Shown piece after piece: positions 4,283-14,230 of a stretch of 39,497 nt of DNA. The translations under genes were made by a program, and so were the position numbers. The notes under the pieces are model-generated. The model searched no databases, was not told where the DNA came from, and saw only the letters and a program-made list of their open reading frames with translations. Source of the DNA: a virus. Taxonomy: Duplodnaviria > Heunggongvirae > Uroviricota > Caudoviricetes. Position 1 is the stretch's first letter; each line of letters opens with the position of its first letter. The stretch is from the IMG/VR virus record IMGVR_UViG_2778261536_000006, one strand, 5' to 3'.

Positions 4283-4528
4283 ATGACTTTTGATGAAAAA
4301 GAACTTGATAATGCAATTAATAAAATCATCGTAACGTCGCTCTTTTCCTGTCTCAGCGACACTCAGCAGAAACAGTTCTACGAATCGGCTTTCAACATGA
4401 TCGAGCGTTGTTGTTTCTGCGATGCCGACGAGTTACCTGAAAAAATCAGGAAACAGTTGGCTGATGCTCTTCGAGTGCGACTTTCTGACCAATTTTCTGA
4501 AATGTACTCTCCGAATTTGGACAAATAG
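4283..4528 (+). CDS. Hypothetical protein (81 aa), antisense to the early-left operon
   Basis: ATG with AAAGGAAAA upstream; overlaps the 3' end of the convergent ORF 4446-4721; coding status uncertain. Confidence 0.3.
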   Translation: MTFDEKELDNAINKIIVTSLFSCLSDTQQKQFYESAFNMIERCCFCDADELPEKIRKQLADALRVRLSDQFSEMYSPNLDK

Positions 4529-4721
4529 AAAAAGGCCATTTCCATTCAGGGTCTGATGGAAAGACTTCAGCCTGTTCCAAAGCACGGCGTAAAGAGAATA
4601 CAACTCCAGCCATAATCTGATGTTTCCCATTGGTCCAGCTATCGCCGCTCTGATCTACAGGAGCGGCTATGTCGTATGACCAAACGACTTCACCACTATT
4701 GTTTAAAATCTGGACTTTCAT
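4446..4721 (-). CDS. Hypothetical early protein (91 aa)
   Basis: ORF in operon orientation with GGAGG 12 nt upstream; overlaps the convergent plus-strand ORF; uncertain. Confidence 0.3.
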   Translation of the reverse strand: MKVQILNNSGEVVWSYDIAAPVDQSGDSWTNGKHQIMAGVVFSLRRALEQAEVFPSDPEWKWPFSICPNSESTFQKIGQKVALEEHQPTVS

Positions 4722-4729
4722 TTTGTTCT

Positions 4730-4951
4730 TTAACCTCCAGATTTCCGCGCATCTAAAGGCGCATTCTCATTTGGTGTGAACTGAATAGTTGTGCTGATAT
4801 TGATTAATGCCCCGACACACAAGACTACGCACTCAGAGCAGATAGCAACTTCATCTTTTCCGCCTTTGGCGATGATTTTTTTTGCCTGCAGCTCGTTTGC
4901 GCCACAAAACGAGCATGTGAAATAACGGTTCATTTGCGCTCTCTTACACAT
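4730..4951 (-). CDS. ClpX-type C4 zinc-finger (ZBD-like) small protein
   Basis: CSFCG...EVAICSECVVLC matches the CxxC...CxxC pattern and spacing of the ClpX N-terminal zinc-binding domain; first gene of the leftward operon. Confidence 0.5.
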   Translation of the reverse strand: MCKRAQMNRYFTCSFCGANELQAKKIIAKGGKDEVAICSECVVLCVGALINISTTIQFTPNENAPLDARKSGG

Positions 4952-5126
4952 AGTATTTAACGAATCATCCGGTCATTCATACGCCACCGGCGGCTACTTC
5001 GTGTTCGTCCTGACTGTTCGTTTTTGACATTTACTGACCGCTTACGACACATGCACCATGCACCGTGTTGCAACTAGATTTTGTTGTAATCCTGTAGTTG
5101 GTCTGGAACAAAAGATAAAATTAAAA

Positions 5127-5163
5127 TGCGATATACGCAAGTAATATTTTGCGAGATGTGCAA
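5127..5163. promoter_or_regulatory. Putative left operator sites (TTGCG/CGCAA half-site motifs)
   Basis: TGCGATATACGCAA (5127-5140) and TTGCGAGATGTGCAA (5149-5163) share half-sites with the cI-cro intergenic sites. Confidence 0.35.
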
Positions 5164-5175
5164 ATTATGGGTGAT

Positions 5176-5196
5176 AAAAAGCCACCTTTCGGTGGC
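5176..5196 (-). terminator. Rho-independent terminator downstream of the repressor gene
   Basis: Minus strand reads GCCACC-GAAA-GGTGGC followed by TTTTT, just 3' of the cI-like stop. Confidence 0.55.
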
Positions 5197-5216
5197 CGAT
5201 GGATGGGATATTGAAG

Positions 5217-5909
5217 TTAATTATGTCTCTTAAGGGTTTGCGACTGACTGATTAAGACCTTTCCAAAGACCATGAATCGGTGTTCGTTTTCGCTAGTAAT
5301 TCCCCATTCACGGTAAATCTGGTTATCAGAAATCACCAGCAGTTTGTCAGGAATCATTTGAAGTCTTTTAACGTATATTTTGTCATCAAAACCAAAGACA
5401 TATATACCATCACCATCAAACTGATTGATGCTGACATCAACGAAGATGAGATCTCCTGGCTCAATGGTTGGACACATACTGTCCCCACGAACGTTGATAA
5501 CTTTGATGTGATTGGCTGGTCGTCCGCCGAACATTGATACAGCATTATCAGTTCTGTATTCGATGGCATGAATCACATCAATGACATCACCGCCCTGGAT
5601 AAGGCCATTTCCCGCACTGGCACTGATATCCAACATTTCAATACGGAACACATCCTTCACCTGCGCAACATCCTCATCATTACTGTTTTTATATACAGTA
5701 TTACTTTTGAGGGCAGAGGTAAAGAGATCAGCAATATCAACACCTAAGCTCTTGGCAATATTACTCAGTGTTTGTTCGGTAAATTGTTTCTGCTTACCCG
5801 TTTCTAAGCGCGAGATGTTCGCCGCATCTACTCCTATTGCTTCAGCGAGATCGGCGATTTTCATGTTCTTCGCTTGGCGAAGTTGTCTGACTCGTTTTCC
5901 TATGTTCAT
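5217..5909 (-). CDS. CI-like phage repressor (HTH-XRE plus S24 LexA-like peptidase domain)
   Basis: 230 aa; N-terminal HTH and C-terminal S24 motifs (GDSM...KRL); divergent from the Cro-like gene. Confidence 0.85.
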   Translation of the reverse strand: MNIGKRVRQLRQAKNMKIADLAEAIGVDAANISRLETGKQKQFTEQTLSNIAKSLGVDIADLFTSALKSNTVYKNSNDEDVAQVKDVFRIEMLDISASAGNGLIQGGDVIDVIHAIEYRTDNAVSMFGGRPANHIKVINVRGDSMCPTIEPGDLIFVDVSINQFDGDGIYVFGFDDKIYVKRLQMIPDKLLVISDNQIYREWGITSENEHRFMVFGKVLISQSQTLKRHN

Positions 5910-5929
5910 GCGTTTATTACATTTCTTTA

Positions 5930-5992
5930 TTGCGTGATAAGCAAATCAACTTGCGCAAAATACTTGCGTGAAATAACATGCATAACGCGCAA
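5930..5992. promoter_or_regulatory. Operator/promoter region between cI-like and cro-like genes
   Basis: TTGCGTGATAAGCAA (5930-5944), perfect palindrome TTGCGCAA (5951-5958) and TTGCG...CGCAA (5964-5992) in the 97-bp divergent intergenic region. Confidence 0.5.
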
Positions 5993-6006
5993 TATTTGGA
6001 GGATAT

Positions 6007-6267
6007 ATGCAATCACCATTACGAAATGTGCGTAAGGCGCATGGTTTCACTTTGCAGCATGTTGCTGCGGGTGTTCAAGTCAATCCAGCGACGTTGAGTC
6101 GTATTGAGAGGCTGGAGCAGATTCCATCTATCGAGCTTGCAGAACGTTTAGCCAATTTTTTTAAGGGTGAAATCAGCGAAATGCAGATTCTTTATCCGGC
6201 ACGTTTTCAATCTAGCCAAAACCAGAATGGGTTTAAACCACAGGAACAGGAGGTGAACCGTGGGTAA
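6007..6267 (+). CDS. Cro-like HTH (XRE family) regulator
   Basis: 86 aa with N-terminal HTH; divergent from repressor; GGAGG 4 nt upstream. Confidence 0.7.
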   Translation: MQSPLRNVRKAHGFTLQHVAAGVQVNPATLSRIERLEQIPSIELAERLANFFKGEISEMQILYPARFQSSQNQNGFKPQEQEVNRG

Positions 6268-6811
6268 GCATCACTGGAAAATAGAAAAACAGCCTGAGTG
6301 GTACGTGAAAGCTGTCAGAAAAACTATCGCGGCGTTGCCGGGTGGTTACGCTGAAGCGGCTGATTGGCTCGATGTAACAGAAAACGCTTTATTCAACCGC
6401 CTTCGTGCAGATGGCGATCAGATTTTCCCGCTGGGATGGGCAATGGTTTTACAGCGTGCTGGTGGCACTCACTTCATTGCTGATGCTGTGGCGCAGTCTG
6501 CAAATGGCGTATTTGTGTCTCTTCCTGACATCGAGGATGTGGACAACGCCGATATCAACCAACGCCTGCTGGAGGTCATTGAACAGATCGGCAGTTATTC
6601 AAAACAGATTCGTTCAGCAATTGAAGACGGTGTAGTGGAACCGCATGAGAAGACAGCAATTAACGATGAGCTGTACCTCTCAATTTCGAAGCTGCAGGAG
6701 CATGCAGCACTGGTCTACAAAATCTTTTGCGTTTCAGAAAGTAGTGACGCCCGCGAGTGTGCAGCTCCGGGCGCCGTGGCGTGTCGTGACTGTGGAGAAA
6801 CTAACGCATGA
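6260..6811 (+). CDS. Putative lysogeny/early regulatory protein (CII-like position)
   Basis: 183 aa, GTG start with AGGAGG 6 nt upstream, immediately after cro; family assignment tentative. Confidence 0.4.
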
Positions 6812-7146
6812 ACAGTTTAACAACACACTACCGTCGCTCGCAACTGATTGCGCTTCCTGTACCGGGTGGAAAAGCGAAGGTGGAGTATTGCTATGCAGTA
6901 AATGTACCAGGTGACAGGGTAATTGTAACCCACAGCTTTGCAGAGTGGGCTGTGGGTGATTTCAACCGGCAAAAGGAGACAGTCCTTTGCGACAAGTTAA
7001 CCGCTGGTTCAAAGATCACTACGGAGTGCCCGTCAGAGTCATTCGTTGGGAGCCGGAAACACAACGGGTTATCTACCTCCGTGAAGGCTATGAGCATGAG
7101 TGCTTCAGCCCGCTCGAACAGTTTCGTCGTAAATTCAGGGAAATAG
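6808..7146 (+). CDS. Hypothetical ORF, uncertain (possible frameshifted gene)
   Basis: 112-aa track ORF with a Ser-rich, low-complexity C-terminal half; an alternative TTG-start ORF 6987-7166 in another frame looks more protein-like. Confidence 0.2.
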
Positions 7147-7155
7147 AGGTCGGTC

Positions 7156-8097
7156 ATGAGCACTAAATTAACCGGCTATGTATGGGATGGTTGCGCAGCG
7201 TCAGGCATGAAATTATCCAGCGTGGCAATTATGGCCCGCCTGGCTGATTTCAGTAATGACGAAGGTGTGTGCTGGCCATCAATTGAAACCATTGCCCGCC
7301 AGATTGGCGCGGGGATGAGTACCGTCAGAACGGCTATCGCACGGCTGGAAGCAGAAGGCTGGTTAACGCGTAAGGCGCGTCGCCAGGGTAACCGCAATGC
7401 GTCGAATGTTTATCAGCTTAACGTTGCGAAGCTTCAGGCAGCGGCATTTTCTCAACTGTCAGATTCTGACCCGTCAAAATCTGACGCATCAAAATCTGAC
7501 CCGTCAAAATTTGATGCGTCGAAATCTGGCAAAAAAGCGGGTTTTCACCCGTCAGAATCTGGCGGGGATCCGTCAGTAAAATCAAAACATGATCCGTCAG
7601 ATAAAAAACCTTCTCGTCCGGACGCTTCGCAACCGGACACGCAGACGGATGAACAGGATTTTTTAACTCGCCATCCTGATGCGGTTGTATTCAGCCCTAA
7701 AAAGCGCCAGTGGGGAACGCAGGATGATTTGACCTGCGCACAGTGGCTCTGGAAAAAAATCATCGCCCTGTACGAGCAGGCTGCCGAATGTGACGGCGAG
7801 GTGGTTCGTCCCAAAGAACCGAACTGGACAGCCTGGGCAAACGAAATTCGCCTGATGTGTGTGCAGGATGGTCGTACTCACAAACAAATCTGCGAGATGT
7901 ACAGCCGCGTCAGCCGCGATCCGTTCTGGTGCCGTAACGTGCTCAGCCCGTCGAAGTTGCGGGAAAAATGGGATGAGCTTTCCCTGCGCTTATCACCGTC
8001 CGTCAGCACGTACACCGAAAAACGCGAAGACCCGTACTTCAAATCCAGTTACGACAACGTGGACTACAGCCAGATCCCGGCAGGATTCAGGGGGTGA
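7156..8097 (+). CDS. Replication initiator (O-like, winged-HTH N-terminus) containing origin iterons
   Basis: 313 aa; HTH-like N-terminal domain; repeat-rich linker encoded by tandem DNA repeats; position after cro/cII as in lambdoid replication modules. Confidence 0.6.
   Translation: MSTKLTGYVWDGCAASGMKLSSVAIMARLADFSNDEGVCWPSIETIARQIGAGMSTVRTAIARLEAEGWLTRKARRQGNRNASNVYQLNVAKLQAAAFSQLSDSDPSKSDASKSDPSKFDASKSGKKAGFHPSESGGDPSVKSKHDPSDKKPSRPDASQPDTQTDEQDFLTRHPDAVVFSPKKRQWGTQDDLTCAQWLWKKIIALYEQAAECDGEVVRPKEPNWTAWANEIRLMCVQDGRTHKQICEMYSRVSRDPFWCRNVLSPSKLREKWDELSLRLSPSVSTYTEKREDPYFKSSYDNVDYSQIPAGFRG
7465..7606 (+). repeat. Iteron array (putative ori) inside the replication initiator gene
   Basis: Four tandem 15-bp units TCTGAC(C/G)C(G/A)TCAAAA at 7465-7524, then a degenerate unit and three spaced CCGTCAG copies to about 7606. 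Confidence 0.55.
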
Positions 8098-8099
8098 TC

Positions 8100-8588
8100 A
8101 TGAGTCTTTTGAATGAAGTTCAGAAATTCATTGAAGCCCATCCGGGGTGTACTTCCGGAGACATTGCGGATGCTTTTGCAGGTTACTCACGGCAGCGCGT
8201 TCTGCAGTCAGCAAGCAAGTTACGTCAGAGTGGGCGTGTGGCTCACCGTTGTGAAGGAGATACACGCAGACATTTCTCGCGCCTGACTGAGAGAGCGCAG
8301 GAGCCGGAACCACAACCAGTTCGTGAAACCAGACCTGTGCGCAATTTCTATGTTGGCACTAACGACCCGCAGGTGATTTTGTGCCTGACTCGCCAGGCGG
8401 AAGAACTGGAGTCCAGGGGCTTATACCGTCGAGCTGCAACGGTGTGGATGGAGGCATTCCGTGAAAGCCACTCCCAGCCAGAACGAAACAATTTTCTGGC
8501 GCATCGTGAGCGGTGCTTACGGAAAAGCAGCAAGCGCGCTGCATCGGGTGAAGAGTGGTATCTGTCAGGGAATTACGTGGGGGCTTAA
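8100..8588 (+). CDS. PerC-family transcriptional regulator-like protein
   Basis: C-terminal AEELESRGLYRRAATVWMEAF resembles the PerC motif; ATG at 8100 with GGGGG 5 nt upstream (track starts at GTG 8094). Confidence 0.45.
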   Translation: MSLLNEVQKFIEAHPGCTSGDIADAFAGYSRQRVLQSASKLRQSGRVAHRCEGDTRRHFSRLTERAQEPEPQPVRETRPVRNFYVGTNDPQVILCLTRQAEELESRGLYRRAATVWMEAFRESHSQPERNNFLAHRERCLRKSSKRAASGEEWYLSGNYVGA

Positions 8589-9241
8589 TGAGTAATAAAT
8601 ATTGCCAGGCGCTGGTGGAACTGCGGAACAAACCAGCCCATGAACTGAAGGAAGTGGGCGATCAGTGGCGCACGCCGGACAACATTTTCTGGGGAATTAA
8701 CACCCTGTTTGGCCCGTTTGTTCTGGATCTGTTCACCGACGGTGATAACGCCAAATGTGCCGCGTATTACACGGCGGAAGACAACGCGCTGGCGCATGAC
8801 TGGTCAGAACGTCTTGCGGAGCTTAAAGGTGCTGCCTTTGGTAATCCCCCATACAGCCGCGCCAGTAAGCATGAGGGGCAATACATCACCGGCATGCGTT
8901 ACATCATGAAACATGCCAGTGCCATGCGTGATAAGGGCGGGCGCTATGTTTTCCTGATCAAAGCTGCCACCAGCGAAGTGTGGTGGCCGGAAGATGCAGA
9001 CCATATTGCTTTTATTCGCGGGCGTATTGGTTTTGAACTGCCTGCCTGGTTTATCCCGAAAGACGAGAAGCAGGTGCCGACAGGCGCTTTCTTCGCTGGT
9101 GCTATTGCTGTTTTCGATAAGACCTGGAAGGGACCGGCAATCAGCTACATCGGGCGCGATGAACTTGAGGCATGTGGTGAGGCGTTTCTGGCGCAGGTTC
9201 GCCAGCAGGCGGAAAAACTGGTCAGGGAGATGGCGGCATGA
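8588..9241 (+). CDS. Phage Dam-like N6-adenine DNA methyltransferase
   Basis: NPPY catalytic motif (FGNPPYS); start taken at ATG 8588, which overlaps the upstream stop. Confidence 0.75.
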   Translation: MSNKYCQALVELRNKPAHELKEVGDQWRTPDNIFWGINTLFGPFVLDLFTDGDNAKCAAYYTAEDNALAHDWSERLAELKGAAFGNPPYSRASKHEGQYITGMRYIMKHASAMRDKGGRYVFLIKAATSEVWWPEDADHIAFIRGRIGFELPAWFIPKDEKQVPTGAFFAGAIAVFDKTWKGPAISYIGRDELEACGEAFLAQVRQQAEKLVREMAA

Positions 9242-9564
9242 CGACGTTAACTCAATGCCAGCAGCAGGTGCTGGATATGCTGATTTCTTATCAGAAAGAA
9301 CGTGGCTTCCCGCCAACCAATCAGGAGGTGGCAACCATGCTGGGATACCGTTCAGTGAATGCAGCGGTGGAGCATCTTCGCGCACTGGAGAAAAAAGGCG
9401 TCATCACGATAAAGCGTGGCGTGGCCCGGGGCATCACGCTTCATACCGCGGTGAAGGACGACGACAGCGAGGCGGTCGGGATTATCCGCGCACTGCTTGC
9501 CGGTGAGGCAAACGCCAGGCTGCGTGCAGCCCACTGGTTACATGAGAGGGGCCTGAAAGTATGA
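9238..9564 (+). CDS. LexA DNA-binding-domain-like protein (no peptidase domain)
   Basis: 108 aa; LTQCQQQVLDML...GFPPTNQEVA...RSVNAAVEHLRALEKKGVI parallels the LexA N-terminal winged helix; ORF ends before any S24 domain. Confidence 0.55.
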   Translation: MTTLTQCQQQVLDMLISYQKERGFPPTNQEVATMLGYRSVNAAVEHLRALEKKGVITIKRGVARGITLHTAVKDDDSEAVGIIRALLAGEANARLRAAHWLHERGLKV

Positions 9565-9950
9565 AGCTAATACTGCCTTTTCCGCCCAGCGTGAACACGT
9601 ACTGGCGACACCCCAACAAAGGGGCGCTTGCAGGTAAGAGCCTGATAAGCGCGGCGGGGCGAAAATTCCAGAGCGCAGCGTGTGCAGCCATCATTGAGCA
9701 GTTACGTCGTCTGCCGAAACCAACGTCGGCACCAGCTTCAGTGGAGATCGTGTTGTTTCCTCCGGATAACCGGCTTCGCGATCTGGACAACTATAACAAG
9801 GCGCTGTTTGACGCCCTGACCCACGCGGGTGTGTGGGTGGACGACAGCCAGGTGAAAAGAATGCTGGTGGAGTGGGGGCCGGTTATCCCGGAAGGGAAGG
9901 TCGAAATCACTATCAGTAAGTACGAGAAAACGGCGGGTGCAGCCGCCTGA
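9561..9950 (+). CDS. rusA: RusA-family Holliday junction resolvase
   Basis: 129 aa with LPFPPSVNTYWRH and DLDNYNKALFDALT motifs characteristic of RusA. Confidence 0.8.
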   Translation: MKLILPFPPSVNTYWRHPNKGALAGKSLISAAGRKFQSAACAAIIEQLRRLPKPTSAPASVEIVLFPPDNRLRDLDNYNKALFDALTHAGVWVDDSQVKRMLVEWGPVIPEGKVEITISKYEKTAGAAA

Positions 9951-11789: not shown

Positions 11790-12542
11790 ATGAACCTTGA
11801 AGCCTTACCAAAATATTACTCCCCAAAATCTCCAAAATTGAGCGATGACGCACCGGCGACAGGCTCAGGTGGTTTAACGATTACGGATGTGATGGCTGCG
11901 CAGGGGATGGTGCAGTCGAAAGCACCGCTTGGGTTTGCCTTATTCCTGGCAAAAGTTGGTGTTCAGGATCCTCAATTTGCGATTGAAGGTCTGCTCAATT
12001 ACGCGATGGCACTGGATAACCCGACATTGAACAAATTGAGTGAAGAAACCCGGTTACAGATCATCCCTTACCTTGTGAATTTTGCCTTTGCTGATTATTC
12101 CAGGTCTGCGGCAAGTAAGGCTCGCTGTGAGCATTGTGCTGGTACTGGATTTCATAATGTATTGCGCGAAGTGGTGAAACACTCCAGAAGCGGGGAATCT
12201 GTTATCAAGGAAGAGTGGGTGAAGGAACTATGTCAGCATTGTCATGGTAAGGGAGAAGTCAGCACAGCGTGCAGAGGGTGTAAGGGTAAAGGTATTGTCC
12301 TGGATGAAAAAAGGACCCGGCTTCATGGCACGCCTGTTTATAAGATTTGTGGGCGTTGCAATGGAAACCGGTTTAGCCGTTTACCAACCACACTGGCGCG
12401 GCATCATGTCCAGAAGCTGGTACCAGACCTGACGGATTATCAGTGGTACAAAGGATATGCAGATGTCATTGATAAACTGGTTACAAAGTGCTGGCAGGAA
12501 GAAGCATATGCAGAGATACAATTGAGAAAGGTGACAAGATAA
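11790..12542 (+). CDS. Late-gene antiterminator Q-like protein
   Basis: Four CxxC zinc-finger-like motifs and close resemblance to Qin-prophage QuuQ as I recall it; start at ATG 11790 with GGAG upstream (track ORF starts earlier). Confidence 0.7.
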   Translation: MNLEALPKYYSPKSPKLSDDAPATGSGGLTITDVMAAQGMVQSKAPLGFALFLAKVGVQDPQFAIEGLLNYAMALDNPTLNKLSEETRLQIIPYLVNFAFADYSRSAASKARCEHCAGTGFHNVLREVVKHSRSGESVIKEEWVKELCQHCHGKGEVSTACRGCKGKGIVLDEKRTRLHGTPVYKICGRCNGNRFSRLPTTLARHHVQKLVPDLTDYQWYKGYADVIDKLVTKCWQEEAYAEIQLRKVTR

Positions 12543-12573
12543 ATGGTTTTCGCCGAAGATGACGACATGATGC

Positions 12574-12602
12574 TTGCATTTTTCAAAAAATATGGATAAG
12601 AT
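12574..12602 (+). promoter_or_regulatory. Putative late promoter pR' (Q-dependent)
   Basis: TTGCAT (12574-12579), 17-bp spacer, TAAGAT (12597-12602), just downstream of Q. Confidence 0.45.
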
Positions 12603-12650
12603 TTTCCCAACGATGGGCTTTGTATGTCTACCGTTGATAAGATTTAGGAA

Positions 12651-12672
12651 CCCGCCACTGAGCGGGTTTTTT
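12651..12672 (+). terminator. Rho-independent terminator tR' (short 6S-like late leader)
   Basis: CCCGC-CACTGA-GCGGG followed by TTTTTT, about 50 nt downstream of the putative pR'. Confidence 0.7.
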
Positions 12673-12794
12673 GTACCTGTAAACTTGGTGCAGTACAGTA
12701 AACACGCTGGTGGTCGTGAATACTGACTTTTTATCTTGCTGGATTTTTAGACAAGAGTTATTGGTATGTCATGTTAACCAGAAGGGAAAAAGAC

Positions 12795-12998
12795 ATGCTA
12801 AAACAGCAAGATATGACAGAAACCGCCGCCGCAGTCCTTCATTTCTTACCTGCTGACAAGTGGGTAACGCCACGCATGATGACGAGAACTACCGGAGTAA
12901 GCGAAGCCCGGTGCCAGTTAATACTGACTCAGTTAGTTCTGGCGGGTCTGGCGAAGGATAACGGCGGGTACGGGAATAAATTCAGACGCTGCCAGTAA
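12795..12998 (+). CDS. Small hypothetical protein (possible winged-helix)
   Basis: 67 aa from ATG 12795 with AAGGGA upstream (track ORF from 12771); between tR' and the methyltransferase. Confidence 0.35.
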   Translation: MLKQQDMTETAAAVLHFLPADKWVTPRMMTRTTGVSEARCQLILTQLVLAGLAKDNGGYGNKFRRCQ

Positions 12999-13148
12999 TG
13001 GCGGTTTCCTGCTGTGAAAATGGGCGGCTGGTGGGTGTTGGTAGCACCTGCCAGCCATTCGCTCATGCTTACTGGTCACAAGCGAACCACGGCCCACTGC
13101 TTTAGCGCAAAAGCAGAGTGAGCCTACCAGAGTTACGCTTACTGATCC

Positions 13149-14201
13149 ATGAAAAATACTGTAAAAATAAACAGTGTTGATTTAATCAACGCTGATTGCC
13201 TGCATTTTATTCAGTCCCTGCCTGATGATTCCATTGACCTGATTGTTACCGATCCGCCTTACTTCAAGGTGAAACCTAACGGTTGGGACAATCAGTGGAA
13301 AGGGGATGAAGATTACCTTAAGTGGCTGGACCACTGTCTGGCCCAGTTCTGGCGGGTGTTGAAACCTGCCGGAAGCCTTTACCTGTTCTGTGGGCATCGC
13401 CTAGCATCTGATATTGAGATCATGATGCGTGAACGTTTCAACGTGCTTAACCATATCATCTGGGCGAAGCCGTCCGGACGTTGGAATGGGTGTAATAAAG
13501 AAAGTCTGCGCGCATATTTTCCTGCCACAGAGCGCGTTCTGTTTGCTGAACATTACCAGGGGCCATATCGCGGCAAAAGTGACGGCTATGCGGCAAAAGA
13601 AAGGGAACTCAAACAGCACATAATGGCACCGCTGATATCGTATTTCAGGGATGCTCGTGCCGAACTGGGTATAACGGCAAAACAAATTGCCGAAGCCACA
13701 GGTAAGAAAAATATGGTTTCCCACTGGTTTGGTGCCAGTCAGTGGCAGTTGCCGAATGAGGCTGACTATCGGAAGTTACAGGCACTGTTTTCCCGTATAG
13801 CGGCAGAGAAGTTTCAGGAACAACAACTGGAACAACCACACCACCAGCTGGTGGCATCTTATGATTCACTGAATCGTAAATATTCTGAATTGCTGGATGA
13901 GTTTAAATCTCTCCGGCGCTATTTCTCCGTATCAGTCTCCGTGCCTTATACCGATGTCTGGATGCATAAACCCGTTCAGTTCTACCCGGGGAAACATCCG
14001 TGTGAGAAACCGGCGGATATGCTCAGGCAAATAATCAATGCCAGTAGTCGACCAGGTGATCTGGTTGCTGATTTTTTTATGGGATCCGGTTCCACAATAA
14101 AAGCAGCAATGGCGCTGGGGCGTCGGGCCTTAGGTGTTGAGCTTGAGTCAGAGCGGTTTAATCAGACAGTGAAAGAGATAAACGAGCTGGTGGGGAAATA
14201 A
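13149..14201 (+). CDS. DNA methyltransferase (N6-adenine/N4-cytosine, beta-class)
   Basis: 350 aa with N-terminal DPPY catalytic motif and C-terminal AdoMet-binding FMGSGST. Confidence 0.8.
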   Translation: MKNTVKINSVDLINADCLHFIQSLPDDSIDLIVTDPPYFKVKPNGWDNQWKGDEDYLKWLDHCLAQFWRVLKPAGSLYLFCGHRLASDIEIMMRERFNVLNHIIWAKPSGRWNGCNKESLRAYFPATERVLFAEHYQGPYRGKSDGYAAKERELKQHIMAPLISYFRDARAELGITAKQIAEATGKKNMVSHWFGASQWQLPNEADYRKLQALFSRIAAEKFQEQQLEQPHHQLVASYDSLNRKYSELLDEFKSLRRYFSVSVSVPYTDVWMHKPVQFYPGKHPCEKPADMLRQIINASSRPGDLVADFFMGSGSTIKAAMALGRRALGVELESERFNQTVKEINELVGK

Positions 14202-14207
14202 TCTGGT

Positions 14208-14230
14208 GGCCACGTTGCGTGGCCTTTTTA
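14208..14230 (+). terminator. Rho-independent terminator after the methyltransferase
   Basis: GGCCACG-TTG-CGTGGCC followed by TTTTT. Confidence 0.65.

What the first reader, a model, noticed from the sequence alone, without database searches (positions are those of the whole stretch)
12543..12672. Q-dependent late promoter with a short terminated leader (6S-like RNA)
Immediately after the Q-like gene there is a sigma-70-type promoter candidate (TTGCAT-17-TAAGAT) and, about 50 nt downstream, a strong intrinsic terminator. This is the architecture of lambda pR'/qut/tR'. It implies that all late genes, including the methyltransferase and the lysis, head and tail modules, depend on Q antitermination.
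Basis: partly seen in the sequence, partly recalled or inferred. Interest (0 to 1): 0.4.

Follow-up and report, generated by a model that had tools for sequence, protein, structure and literature searches.

The report
Lambda-type late promoter and terminated leader
Just after the phage's Q gene lies an ordinary but well preserved copy of the phage lambda late-gene switch: a promoter, a built-in pause signal and a terminator about 64 bases downstream. The same switch occurs in about a fifth of complete E. coli genomes and in some Shiga-toxin phages.

Summary
TTGCAT (12574-12579), a 17-nt spacer and TAAGAT (12597-12602) follow the Q stop codon (12542). Alone this is a weak sigma-70 match (7 of 12), and the scan tool missed it. 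It is followed, after 6 nt, by AACGATGGG (12609-12617). That 9-mer is identical in sequence and spacing to the sigma-dependent pause element of lambda PR'. Q (11790-12542) belongs to the lambda-Q family (PF03589, 1e-53; lambda Q in the PDB, 1e-37). A GC-rich hairpin (12649-12668) with a T-run (12667-12672) predicts a 62-64 nt RNA.

Of 97 loci found through the Q protein alone, 96 keep the layout. In the -10 hexamer only positions 3-5 vary. Among the unique short leaders recovered, terminators with 27 different 5' stem arms end at +51 to +72.

This is a new member of a textbook kind. The same cassette occurs in SfV, in the K-12 Qin prophage, in 1215 of 5426 complete E. coli genomes, and upstream of stx2 in Stx2c and Stx2k phages. 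No transcript or Q-dependence data could be retrieved.

One less expected result: a 5'-terminal RNA stem-loop that pairs the pause-element sequence recurs across lambda-Q-type leaders, including lambda's own.

The parts
11790..12542 (+). Q antiterminator gene (250 aa), lambda-Q family, with a 39-aa insert that adds CxxCxGxG zinc knuckles
   Evidence: Pfam PF03589 at 9.8e-54. phmmer against the PDB finds lambda Q (7ubm_Q) at 1e-37, in two stretches, query 1-120 and 160-250. PHROG 127 at 1e-108. The start at 11790 is as annotated in ON470603 and SfV.
12574..12579 (+). -35 hexamer TTGCAT
   Evidence: Read directly. It sits at the same position as lambda TTGACT. TTGCAT or TTGCAA is kept in nearly all relatives.
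12580..12596 (+). 17-nt spacer TTTTCAAAAAATATGGA, the presumed Q-binding element (QBE)
   Evidence: Lambda's QBE lies between -35 and -10 (PMC4914094; PMC9388147). The spacer is 11/17 identical to lambda's without gaps. The core TTCAAAAA..TGG is kept where Q is 64% identical or more and replaced where Q is 36-48% identical. Binding is inferred, not shown.
12597..12602 (+). -10 hexamer TAAGAT
   Evidence: Read directly. In the loci found through Q, positions 1, 2 and 6 (T, A, T) never vary, while positions 3-5 do: TAAGAT, TAGGAT, TAAAAT, TAGAAT, TAGTAT, TAGCAT, TAAATT. This is the pattern expected of a working sigma-70 -10 element.
12609..12617 (+). Predicted start site (+1 = 12609) and sigma-dependent pause element AACGAT plus GGG
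   Evidence: Identical 9-mer and identical 6-nt distance from the -10 hexamer as in lambda PR'. The lambda numbering was checked against T14-N-Y16-G17 from PMC9191641. Essentially invariant across relatives, down to Q at 34% identity.
12623..12626 (+). Pause-site motif TATG (T+15 N Y+17 G+18); the pause is predicted near +17
   Evidence: The consensus T-3 N-2 Y-1 G+1 for the scrunched sigma-dependent pause comes from PMC9191641. TNYG is found at +14..+17 or +15..+18 in 58 of 84 unique leaders.
12609..12635 (+). Predicted 5'-terminal RNA stem-loop (AACG/CGUU outer stem, UGGGC/GUCUA inner stem)
   Evidence: RNAfold and the RNAalifold consensus. 98.6% of cells are paired, against 27-64% in slid controls, with one compensatory pair. 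It recurs in 8 of 11 leader families, against 2-10% of shuffles.
12636..12648 (+). A/U-rich single-stranded linker, the least conserved part of the leader
   Evidence: Alignment A1 shows it replaced between otherwise close relatives.
12649..12672 (+). Intrinsic terminator tR': 7-bp GC-rich stem, 6-nt loop, T6 run
   Evidence: -10.6 kcal/mol. Annotated as a putative rho-independent terminator at the equivalent place in SfV and Ayreon. Among the 84 unique short leaders, the hairpins have 27 different 5' arms at the same place, and the T-run ends at +51 to +72, with a mode of +64/+65.
12795..14201 (+). First genes downstream of the leader: a 67-aa ORF (12795-12998) and a DNA methyltransferase (13149-14201)
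   Evidence: PHROG 331 for the ORF, PF01555 and PHROG 67 for the methylase. Both are co-directional with the leader.
14208..14229 (+). Second clean intrinsic terminator, between the methylase and the holin, which late transcription must also pass
   Evidence: Annotated in SfV and Ayreon.

Best explanation
This is the late-gene regulatory cassette of a lambda-Q-type phage.

**Without Q.** Host sigma-70 RNA polymerase starts at about 12609 from the promoter TTGCAT-17-TAAGAT. Sigma region 2 re-binds the -10-like AACGAT(GGG) in the first transcribed bases and holds the polymerase near +16/+17. Polymerase then escapes and terminates at the hairpin and T-run (12649-12672), releasing an RNA of about 62-64 nt.

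**With Q.** Q binds the spacer DNA between -35 and -10. It docks on the paused complex and, with NusA, forms a nozzle on the RNA exit channel. The polymerase then ignores this terminator and later ones, and transcribes the methylase, lysis, head and tail genes.

**Shown here:** the sequence elements, their lambda-like geometry, the family of Q, and conservation across many loci.

**Inferred:** the start site, the pause, Q binding to the spacer, termination efficiency and Q dependence.
For: 1. Q is a lambda-Q homologue: PF03589 at 1e-53 and lambda Q in the PDB at 1e-37. By my count on the alignment, the N-terminal 44 residues are 25/44 identical, against 34% overall. In lambda this segment forms the exit-channel torus, and G39 is kept.
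2. The region aligns to lambda PR' without gaps: -35, 17 nt, -10, 6 nt, then an identical AACGATGGG. The composite motif is unique in the window and absent from 100 shuffles.
3. A TNYG pause motif lies at +15..+18.
4. Of 97 loci found through the Q protein alone, 96 keep the cassette. The -10 hexamer varies only at positions 3-5.
5. The terminator position is held: in 84 unique short leaders the T-run ends at +51..+72, at +64/+65 in 45 of them, although the stems differ (27 different 5' arms).
6. An independent scan of IMG/VR for the motif lands 5-42 nt downstream of lambda-Q-family genes of 207-303 aa, with several distinct spacer types.
7. A natural hybrid (L061) joins this promoter to lambda's own leader exactly at AACGATGGG.
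8. About 22 kb of co-directional late genes follow, with further terminators and no promoter-like site above chance level.
Against: - No transcript, pause or Q-dependence data exist for this element. Attempts to find the equivalent K-12 Qin RNA in supplementary tables of Term-seq and Cappable-seq papers found nothing, and a third paper held no supplements. Those files may be truncated, or may exclude RNAs this short.
- The promoter matches the sigma-70 consensus less well than lambda's, at -35 3/6 against lambda's 5/6.
- Lambda's -35-like TTGACT just upstream of the pause element, where sigma region 4 relocates, is TTTTCC here.
- Spacer similarity tracks Q similarity no better than the leader does (rho 0.55 against 0.70). 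The placement of the QBE therefore rests on homology with lambda alone.
Confidence: 0.85

Rival explanations
1. The short terminated RNA is itself a trans-acting regulatory small RNA in lysogens, as StxS is for Stx phages, and not only a by-product. This reading can coexist with the main explanation.
For: The RNA has the standard shape of an Hfq-dependent sRNA: a 5' stem-loop, an A/U-rich single strand, and a terminator hairpin with a U tail. There is precedent in StxS and lambda 6S (PMC7547250). The module is very common: 1215 of 5426 complete E. coli genomes carry it.
Against: The single-stranded linker, the obvious seed region, is the least conserved part and is swapped between close relatives. 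No Rfam family is matched at threshold. The conserved part overlaps DNA-level signals.
Confidence: 0.2
2. The cassette is homologous to lambda's but functionally decayed in this element. The promoter is too weak or Q no longer engages, and late genes depend on something else.
For: The promoter scores only 7/12 against consensus. The -35-like site used by sigma region 4 in lambda is not kept. Near-identical copies sit in cryptic prophages such as K-12 Qin.
Against: The window is 100% identical over 12400-12800 to the deposited phage genome vB_EcoM-720R4, and close to SfV, Ayreon and mEp460. The element is under visible purifying selection: the key -10 positions are invariant and AACGATGGG is kept in essentially all copies.
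Confidence: 0.06
3. The hairpin simply ends the early operon after Q, and the upstream promoter-like hexamers are a chance match.
For: The terminator follows the Q stop by about 105 nt. The hexamers alone are not significant.
Against: The identity with the lambda PR' core and its exact spacing occurs in 0 of 100 shuffles. The hexamers and spacing are conserved across Q down to 34-48% identity. The motif scan finds lambda-Q genes upstream at every representative locus where a full-length upstream ORF could be called.
Confidence: 0.03
4. A small RNA on the minus strand (STnc130-like) uses the hairpin in reverse as its own terminator.
For: A sub-threshold Rfam match to STnc130 on the minus strand, 12776..12640, covering the full model at E = 0.02. 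A promoter-like site lies on the minus strand at 12772..12743.
Against: The score is 27.7 bits against a gathering threshold of 55. No U-run follows the hairpin on the minus strand (UUCCUAAAUC). STnc130 proper lies next to dmsA in Salmonella, not in a prophage, and has almost no reads in EHEC.
Confidence: 0.03

Closest known systems
Phage lambda PR' / QBE / sigma-dependent pause element / tR' (6S RNA) with lambda Q
   Same: Q belongs to the same protein family (PF03589). The cassette sits directly after Q. The geometry is the same: -35, 17 nt, -10, 6 nt. AACGATGGG is identical at +1..+9. A TNYG pause motif and a 5' stem that pairs AACG with CGUU are present, followed by an intrinsic terminator and then the late genes.
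   Different: The leader is about 64 nt, not about 194 nt. The spacer (QBE) is 11/17 identical, and +10..+28 only 4/19 identical. Lambda's TTGACT -35-like site upstream of the pause element is TTTTCC here. The pause motif is shifted by 1 nt. Q is 250 aa, with a 39-aa insert in the zinc-ribbon arm that brings the total to four CxxC knuckles.
Stx-phage PR'-tR' leader, processed to the sRNA StxS (Sp5/Sp15, 933W type)
   Same: A constitutive late promoter terminated just downstream, giving a short RNA in lysogens and controlling stx when present (PMC7547250). This very cassette lies 2.6 kb upstream of stx2AB in an Stx2c phage, and the same cassette precedes stx2AB in an Stx2k phage.
   Different: StxS comes from phages with a 144-aa Q and a 258-nt leader that RNase E cuts to 74 nt. 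No sequence relationship to the present leader was seen, and no Hfq or target evidence exists here.
The same cassette in Shigella phage SfV, E. coli phages Ayreon, mEp460 and vB_EcoM-720R4, and the K-12 Qin prophage (ydfT/quuQ)
   Same: 93-100% nucleotide identity across the region in the phages, and Q 94% identical in Qin. The terminator is already annotated in SfV (2002) and Ayreon.
   Different: None of these records annotates the promoter, the pause element or a short RNA. Ayreon, mEp460 and the Stx2c/Stx2k phages carry a 677-bp insert flanked by two copies of the terminator.
Late cassettes of phages 21 and 82 (Q21 family PF06530, Q82 family PF06323)
   Same: The same logic: a promoter, a sigma-dependent promoter-proximal pause, a terminator, and a short RNA in lysogens.
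   Different: The Q protein families are unrelated, and the QBE architecture and pause position differ (+18, and +25 for 82). Not compared at sequence level here.

Membership tests
Lambda-Q-type Q-dependent late regulatory cassette | A Q gene of the lambda-Q family (Pfam PF03589) immediately upstream | tested here: met
   PF03589 at 9.8e-54. Lambda Q structures 7ubm and 4mo1 at 1e-37 and 7e-25. The Q stop lies 31 nt before the -35 hexamer.
Lambda-Q-type Q-dependent late regulatory cassette | A sigma-70 promoter directly downstream of Q | tested here: met
   The sequence is present with a 17-nt spacer. It is weak by consensus at 7/12. The conservation pattern fits a real promoter, with invariant T-12, A-11 and T-7. 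Activity was not measured.
Lambda-Q-type Q-dependent late regulatory cassette | A sigma-dependent pause element: a -10-like sequence, with a discriminator-like GGG, in the first transcribed bases | tested here: met
   AACGATGGG at 12609-12617, identical to lambda +1..+9 at the same distance from the -10 hexamer. Unique in the window, and in 0 of 100 shuffles.
Lambda-Q-type Q-dependent late regulatory cassette | The pause-site consensus T-3 N-2 Y-1 G+1 about 16-17 nt from the start | tested here: met
   TATG at +15..+18 (12623-12626). Consensus from PMC9191641. Present in 58 of 84 unique leaders.
Lambda-Q-type Q-dependent late regulatory cassette | A Q-binding element between the -35 and -10 hexamers | tested here: inconclusive
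   The spacer is 11/17 identical to lambda's, and the spacer type changes with the Q clade. The correlation is no better than for the leader. Binding cannot be tested here.
Lambda-Q-type Q-dependent late regulatory cassette | A -35-like site for relocated sigma region 4 just upstream of the pause element (lambda TTGACT). This is a feature of lambda itself and is not established as defining for the family. | tested here: inconclusive
   The window has TTTTCC at that place, and most relatives have T/C-rich sequences. Whether sigma region 4 docks there cannot be judged from sequence.
Lambda-Q-type Q-dependent late regulatory cassette | An intrinsic terminator between the pause site and the late genes | tested here: met
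   Hairpin 12649-12668 with T6. Kept in position in 84 unique short leaders with different stems.
Lambda-Q-type Q-dependent late regulatory cassette | Co-directional lysis and morphogenesis genes downstream | tested here: met
   Methylase, holin, endolysin, Rz/Rz1, terminase, head and tail genes lie on the same strand for about 22 kb.
Lambda-Q-type Q-dependent late regulatory cassette | Q-dependent read-through, and a short terminated RNA when Q is absent | not testable with these tools
   Needs RNA end mapping or in vitro transcription. Searches of the supplements of two K-12 transcriptome papers found nothing usable, and a third held no supplements.
Hfq-type trans-acting sRNA from an antiterminated promoter (StxS-like) | A conserved single-stranded seed region | tested here: not met
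   The linker 12636-12648 is the most variable segment.
Hfq-type trans-acting sRNA from an antiterminated promoter (StxS-like) | Chaperone binding and defined mRNA targets | not testable with these tools
   No data could be retrieved. There are no Rfam matches at threshold.

The most novel reading that the evidence does not exclude
The invariant pause-element sequence does double duty. As RNA, it forms the 5' arm of a 5'-terminal stem-loop whose 3' arm (CGUU, usually with a YCY partner for GGG) is maintained at +20 to +25 in lambda-Q-type late leaders with otherwise different sequences, including lambda's own.

This stem-loop would be a functional part of the cassette. For example, it could protect the 5' end of the 20-kb late mRNA, and of the abundant short RNA, from 5'-end-dependent decay. 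The 64-nt RNA would then be a stable, so far unannotated transcript in about a fifth of E. coli genomes, including K-12.
Probability: 0.3. Interest if true: 0.45.

Novelty: new member of a known kind. Interest (0 to 1): 0.22.

Why it matters
For annotation, the result fixes the start of the late operon of SfV-like and Qin-like prophages. It also gives a simple signature, a lambda-Q-family gene followed by TTGCAx-17-TAnnnT-6-AACGATGGG and a terminator ending near +64. That signature would mark the late switch in more than a thousand E. coli genomes where nothing is annotated today.

The same Q and leader sit upstream of stx2AB in an Stx2c phage (2.6 kb) and an Stx2k phage. This variant of the switch therefore probably gates toxin expression in those strains, not the well studied 933W type.

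The comparative set also gives natural variants for anyone studying lambda-Q specificity or sigma-dependent pausing. These include different spacers, a hybrid with lambda's leader, and Q proteins with a doubled zinc arm.

None of this changes the textbook picture of Q antitermination.

Tried and rejected
- **Rfam.** There were no matches at gathering thresholds in the whole window. Permissive searches of 12540-12800 gave only sub-threshold hits. The Trp and Leu leader hits reflect the terminator only. isrK scored 10.6 bits. STnc130 on the minus strand scored 27.7 bits against a threshold of 55, and its true locus is next to dmsA.
- **Leader peptide or attenuator.** The ATG at +5 opens a 37-codon frame here, but one of only 11 codons in a close relative and 2 in lambda. 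I read these frames by eye. The frame is not conserved.
- **Direct repeat GATAAGATTT** (12595-12604 and 12636-12645), considered as a second -10 or pause element. It is absent from relatives that have a different -10 hexamer or linker, so it is probably incidental.
- **Covariation test of the 5' stem-loop.** Pairing is almost perfect, but covariation is statistically weak (35-69 of 500 shuffles reach the observed values). The 5' arm is frozen by its role in DNA.
- **Co-variation of Q and spacer as proof of the QBE.** The correlation exists (rho 0.55) but is weaker than for the leader (0.70). It shows shared descent, not specific co-evolution.
- **Formal pair counting on the terminator.** MAFFT misaligns the different terminator types. 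I used per-sequence folding instead.
- **Expression evidence for the K-12 Qin copy.** Nothing was found in the supplements of PMC7815308 or PMC4782308, and PMC11092163 holds no supplements.
- **Papers that could not be read.** The SfV genome paper, Guo and Roberts 2004 and Vorobiev 2014 are not held.
- **The 'Q21' PCR marker of the STEC literature.** Its primer is absent from the window and from the Stx2c and Stx2k loci, so that marker is a different Q allele.

Full report
**What is in the sequence.** The Q-like ORF runs from 11790 to 12542; the start is as annotated in related records. Downstream lie TTGCAT (12574-12579), a 17-nt spacer and TAAGAT (12597-12602). Forty-six nt further on is a GC-rich hairpin, AACCCGC / CACTGA / GCGGGTT (12649-12668), running into TTTTTT (12667-12672).

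The consensus scan reported neither element. The promoter scores only 7 of 12. The terminator was lost because the tool's stem extension, which allows G-T pairs, consumed the T-run. RNA folding of 12609-12673 gives two hairpins at -21.2 kcal/mol (z = -3.2), with the MFE structure equal to the centroid. My own hairpin-plus-T-run scan places this site among about six clean ones on the + strand of the window.

**Why this is more than chance.** The Q protein belongs to the lambda-Q family: PF03589 at 1e-53, and lambda Q structures at 1e-37. PF03589 is the lambda-Q family as defined in PMC9388147.

Set beside the lambda record, the region aligns without gaps:
- lambda: TTGACT - 17 - TAAATT - TGACTC - AACGATGGG
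- window: TTGCAT - 17 - TAAGAT - TTTCCC - AACGATGGG

In lambda, AACGAT(GGG) at +1 to +9 is the sigma-dependent pause element. I checked the numbering against the published T14-N-Y16-G17 pause motif (PMC9191641). The composite pattern occurs once in the window and in none of 100 shuffles.

By homology, +1 is 12609. A TNYG motif lies at +15 to +18 (12623-12626). The T-run ends at +64.

**Comparative evidence.** Searching only with the Q protein gave 80 viral and 17 genomic loci. Ninety-six of the 97 carry the cassette directly after Q.
- In the -10 hexamer, positions 1, 2 and 6 never change, while positions 3-5 do. This is the pattern expected of a working sigma-70 -10 element.
- AACGATGGG is kept in nearly every copy, with only single-base variants, even where Q is 43-48% identical, and in lambda at 34%.
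- The spacer, where lambda's Q-binding element lies, is 17/17 identical for Q at 98% identity. It is 16-17/17 for Q at 94%, 11-15/17 at 65-72% and 8-9/17 at 43-48%.
- After about +28 the sequence is freely exchanged, yet a terminator is always there.

In 84 unique short leaders from both searches, the T-run ends at +51 to +72. It ends at +64 or +65 in 45 of them. The hairpins have 27 different 5' arms, with energies from -8 to -18 kcal/mol.

A second, independent search of IMG/VR for the bare DNA motif returned 120 loci. In all 18 representative loci where a full-length upstream ORF could be called, a lambda-Q-family gene of 207-303 aa ends 5-42 nt upstream of the motif. Several distinct spacer types appear. 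One natural recombinant (L061) joins the present promoter to lambda's own leader exactly at AACGATGGG.

**Mechanism.** The best-supported account is the lambda one (PMC9388147; PMC4914094).
- Polymerase starts at 12609.
- Sigma region 2 re-binds AACGAT and holds the complex near +16/+17.
- Without Q, polymerase escapes and terminates near +62 to +64.
- With Q bound to the spacer, and with NusA, Q's N-terminal segment forms a nozzle on the RNA exit channel, and terminators are ignored.

That N-terminal segment is the best conserved part of the protein. By my count on the alignment, 25 of 44 residues are identical to lambda, and G39 is kept.

Only the sequence anatomy, the family assignment and the conservation are shown here. 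The start site, the pause, Q binding and Q dependence are inferred.

**Differences from lambda.**
- The leader is about 64 nt, not about 194 nt.
- The -35 hexamer is a weaker match.
- Lambda's -35-like TTGACT just upstream of the pause element is TTTTCC here.
- The pause motif sits 1 nt further downstream.
- Q carries a 39-aa insert inside the zinc-ribbon arm, giving four CxxC knuckles.
- The 250-273 aa form is the common one among the loci recovered (PHROG 127).

**A conserved 5' stem-loop.** The block +10 to +28 stays 13-18/19 identical even where Q has diverged to 43-48%. Part of that is the pause motif. The rest is the 3' arm of a stem-loop that starts at +1 (AACG/CGUU, then UGGGC/GUCUA).
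- On 45 distinct leaders, 98.6% of cells pair, against 27-64% when the partner is slid. There is only one fully compensatory change (G4-C24 to A-U), and the shuffle statistics are weak.
- In 11 leader families that differ at more than 7 of 21 positions, nt 1-4 are fully paired in 8, and three of the four are paired in 2 more. The same holds in 2-10% of shuffles and in 0 of 9 chance-context matches.
- The 3' arm sits anywhere from +20 to +25, which argues for RNA pairing and against a fixed DNA site.
- Lambda's own leader does the same (AACGA/UCGUU).

I found no paper on this in the held library. The families share ancestry, so the count overstates their independence. My guess is protection of the RNA 5' end. 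This is a hypothesis only.

**Dependence of all late genes on Q.** The genes from the leader to the tail fibres are co-directional over about 22 kb. Further clean terminators lie on that strand, including 14208-14224 between the methylase and the holin. Promoter-like sites downstream are no more frequent than in shuffles and reach only 9/12. This fits a single Q-dependent late unit but does not prove it.

**Known or new.** The kind is textbook. Short RNAs from the late promoters of lambda, 21, phi80, 82 and P22 have long been described.

The window is 100% identical over 12400-12800 to phage vB_EcoM-720R4, and 93.5% identical to SfV, where the terminator was annotated in 2002. K-12's Qin prophage has the same cassette after ydfT, whose product is 94% identical to this Q. 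The region is found in 1215 of 5426 complete E. coli genomes, with no annotated feature under any of the listed matches.

In Stx2c phage PV98-693, Q is 100% identical to the window's and the same leader precedes stx2AB by about 2.6 kb. The same cassette also precedes stx2AB in the Stx2k phage phiSTEC1575.

I rate it a new member of a known kind, of low general interest. The 5' stem-loop and the Stx link are the only points worth a follow-up.

Noticed in passing
window 12649-12672; L002 (Ayreon) 1739-2456; L225 5250-5273 and 5927-5950; L224 6250-6273 and 6927-6950: In Ayreon, mEp460 and the Stx2c and Stx2k phages, a 677-bp AT-rich insert with a small lipoprotein-like ORF sits exactly at the terminator. 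The hairpin AACCCGCC(A/G)CTGAGCGGGTTTTTT is present at both ends of the insert. This looks like a cargo gene ('moron') that entered by recombination at the terminator, leaving two tR' copies in tandem.
   Followed up: partly
L225 (Stx2c_PV98-693) 4391-9091; L224 (phiSTEC1575-Stx2k) 5391-9730: The same Q and the same promoter and leader lie upstream of stx2A/stx2B. In the Stx2c phage, Q is 100% identical at protein level and the distance is about 2.6 kb. In the Stx2k phage three tRNA genes lie between. The published 'Q21' PCR primer is absent from these loci, so this is a third Q type in stx2 phages.
   Followed up: partly
L103 (E. coli K-12 MG1655, Qin prophage), minus strand, about 6459-6360 = NC_000913.3 1,642,458-1,642,359: K-12 carries the same cassette after ydfT (quuQ), whose product is 94% identical to this Q. 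The predicted start is 1,642,422 and the T-run is at 1,642,363-1,642,360. No feature is annotated there.
   Followed up: partly
window 12150-12266 (Q residues about 121-159): Relative to lambda Q, this Q has a 39-aa insert inside the zinc-ribbon arm with extra CxxCxGxG motifs. That makes four CxxC knuckles in all, resembling the DnaJ cysteine-rich domain (PF00684 at 3e-7, below its cutoff). Most lambda-Q-family genes recovered here are this long form of 250-303 aa, so lambda's 207 aa is the short exception.
   Followed up: partly
L061 (IMGVR_UViG_2565956633_000004), downstream of Q: A natural hybrid. It has the window-type Q, spacer and -10 hexamer up to AACGATGGG, and then lambda's own leader (TTAATTCGCTCGTTGTGG...). 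The pause element acts as a recombination joint between modules.
   Followed up: no
window 12609-12635, and leaders in L004, L104-L223: A 5'-terminal RNA stem-loop that pairs the pause-element sequence recurs in lambda-Q-type leaders with different loops and arm positions, including lambda's.
   Followed up: yes
window 12595-12604 and 12636-12645: An exact 10-nt direct repeat, GATAAGATTT. One copy covers the -10 hexamer and the other lies in the leader at +28 to +37. It is not kept in relatives.
   Followed up: yes
window 12630..12601 and 12772..12743 (minus strand); 12776..12640 (minus strand): Two promoter-like sites lie on the minus strand; the first has a TG extension. A sub-threshold Rfam match to STnc130 also lies on the minus strand. 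These are probably chance, and STnc130 proper is a dmsA-linked Salmonella locus.
   Followed up: partly
window 14208-14229: A second clean intrinsic terminator lies between the DNA methyltransferase and the holin gene. The methylase and the small ORF are therefore bracketed by two terminators, like a cargo module inside the late operon.
   Followed up: no
L087 (JAGZPX010000007.1, labelled MAG: Veillonella parvula): A 22.9-kb contig binned as Veillonella parvula carries this enterobacterial prophage Q (94% identical) and its leader. It is most likely a mis-binned Escherichia contig.
   Followed up: no
L096 (Mangrovibacter plantisponsor, NZ_QGTS01000029.1): This is the only Q-anchored locus without the promoter and pause motif. 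A different hairpin follows Q directly. It may be a deletion or a different arrangement.
   Followed up: no
window 12564-12573 and L004 745-750: CATGAT lies just upstream of the -35 hexamer. It is conserved in the window-type loci (8-10 of 10 positions at Q identity of 65% or more) and is also present, 2 nt closer to the -35 hexamer, in lambda. Its function is unknown.
   Followed up: no
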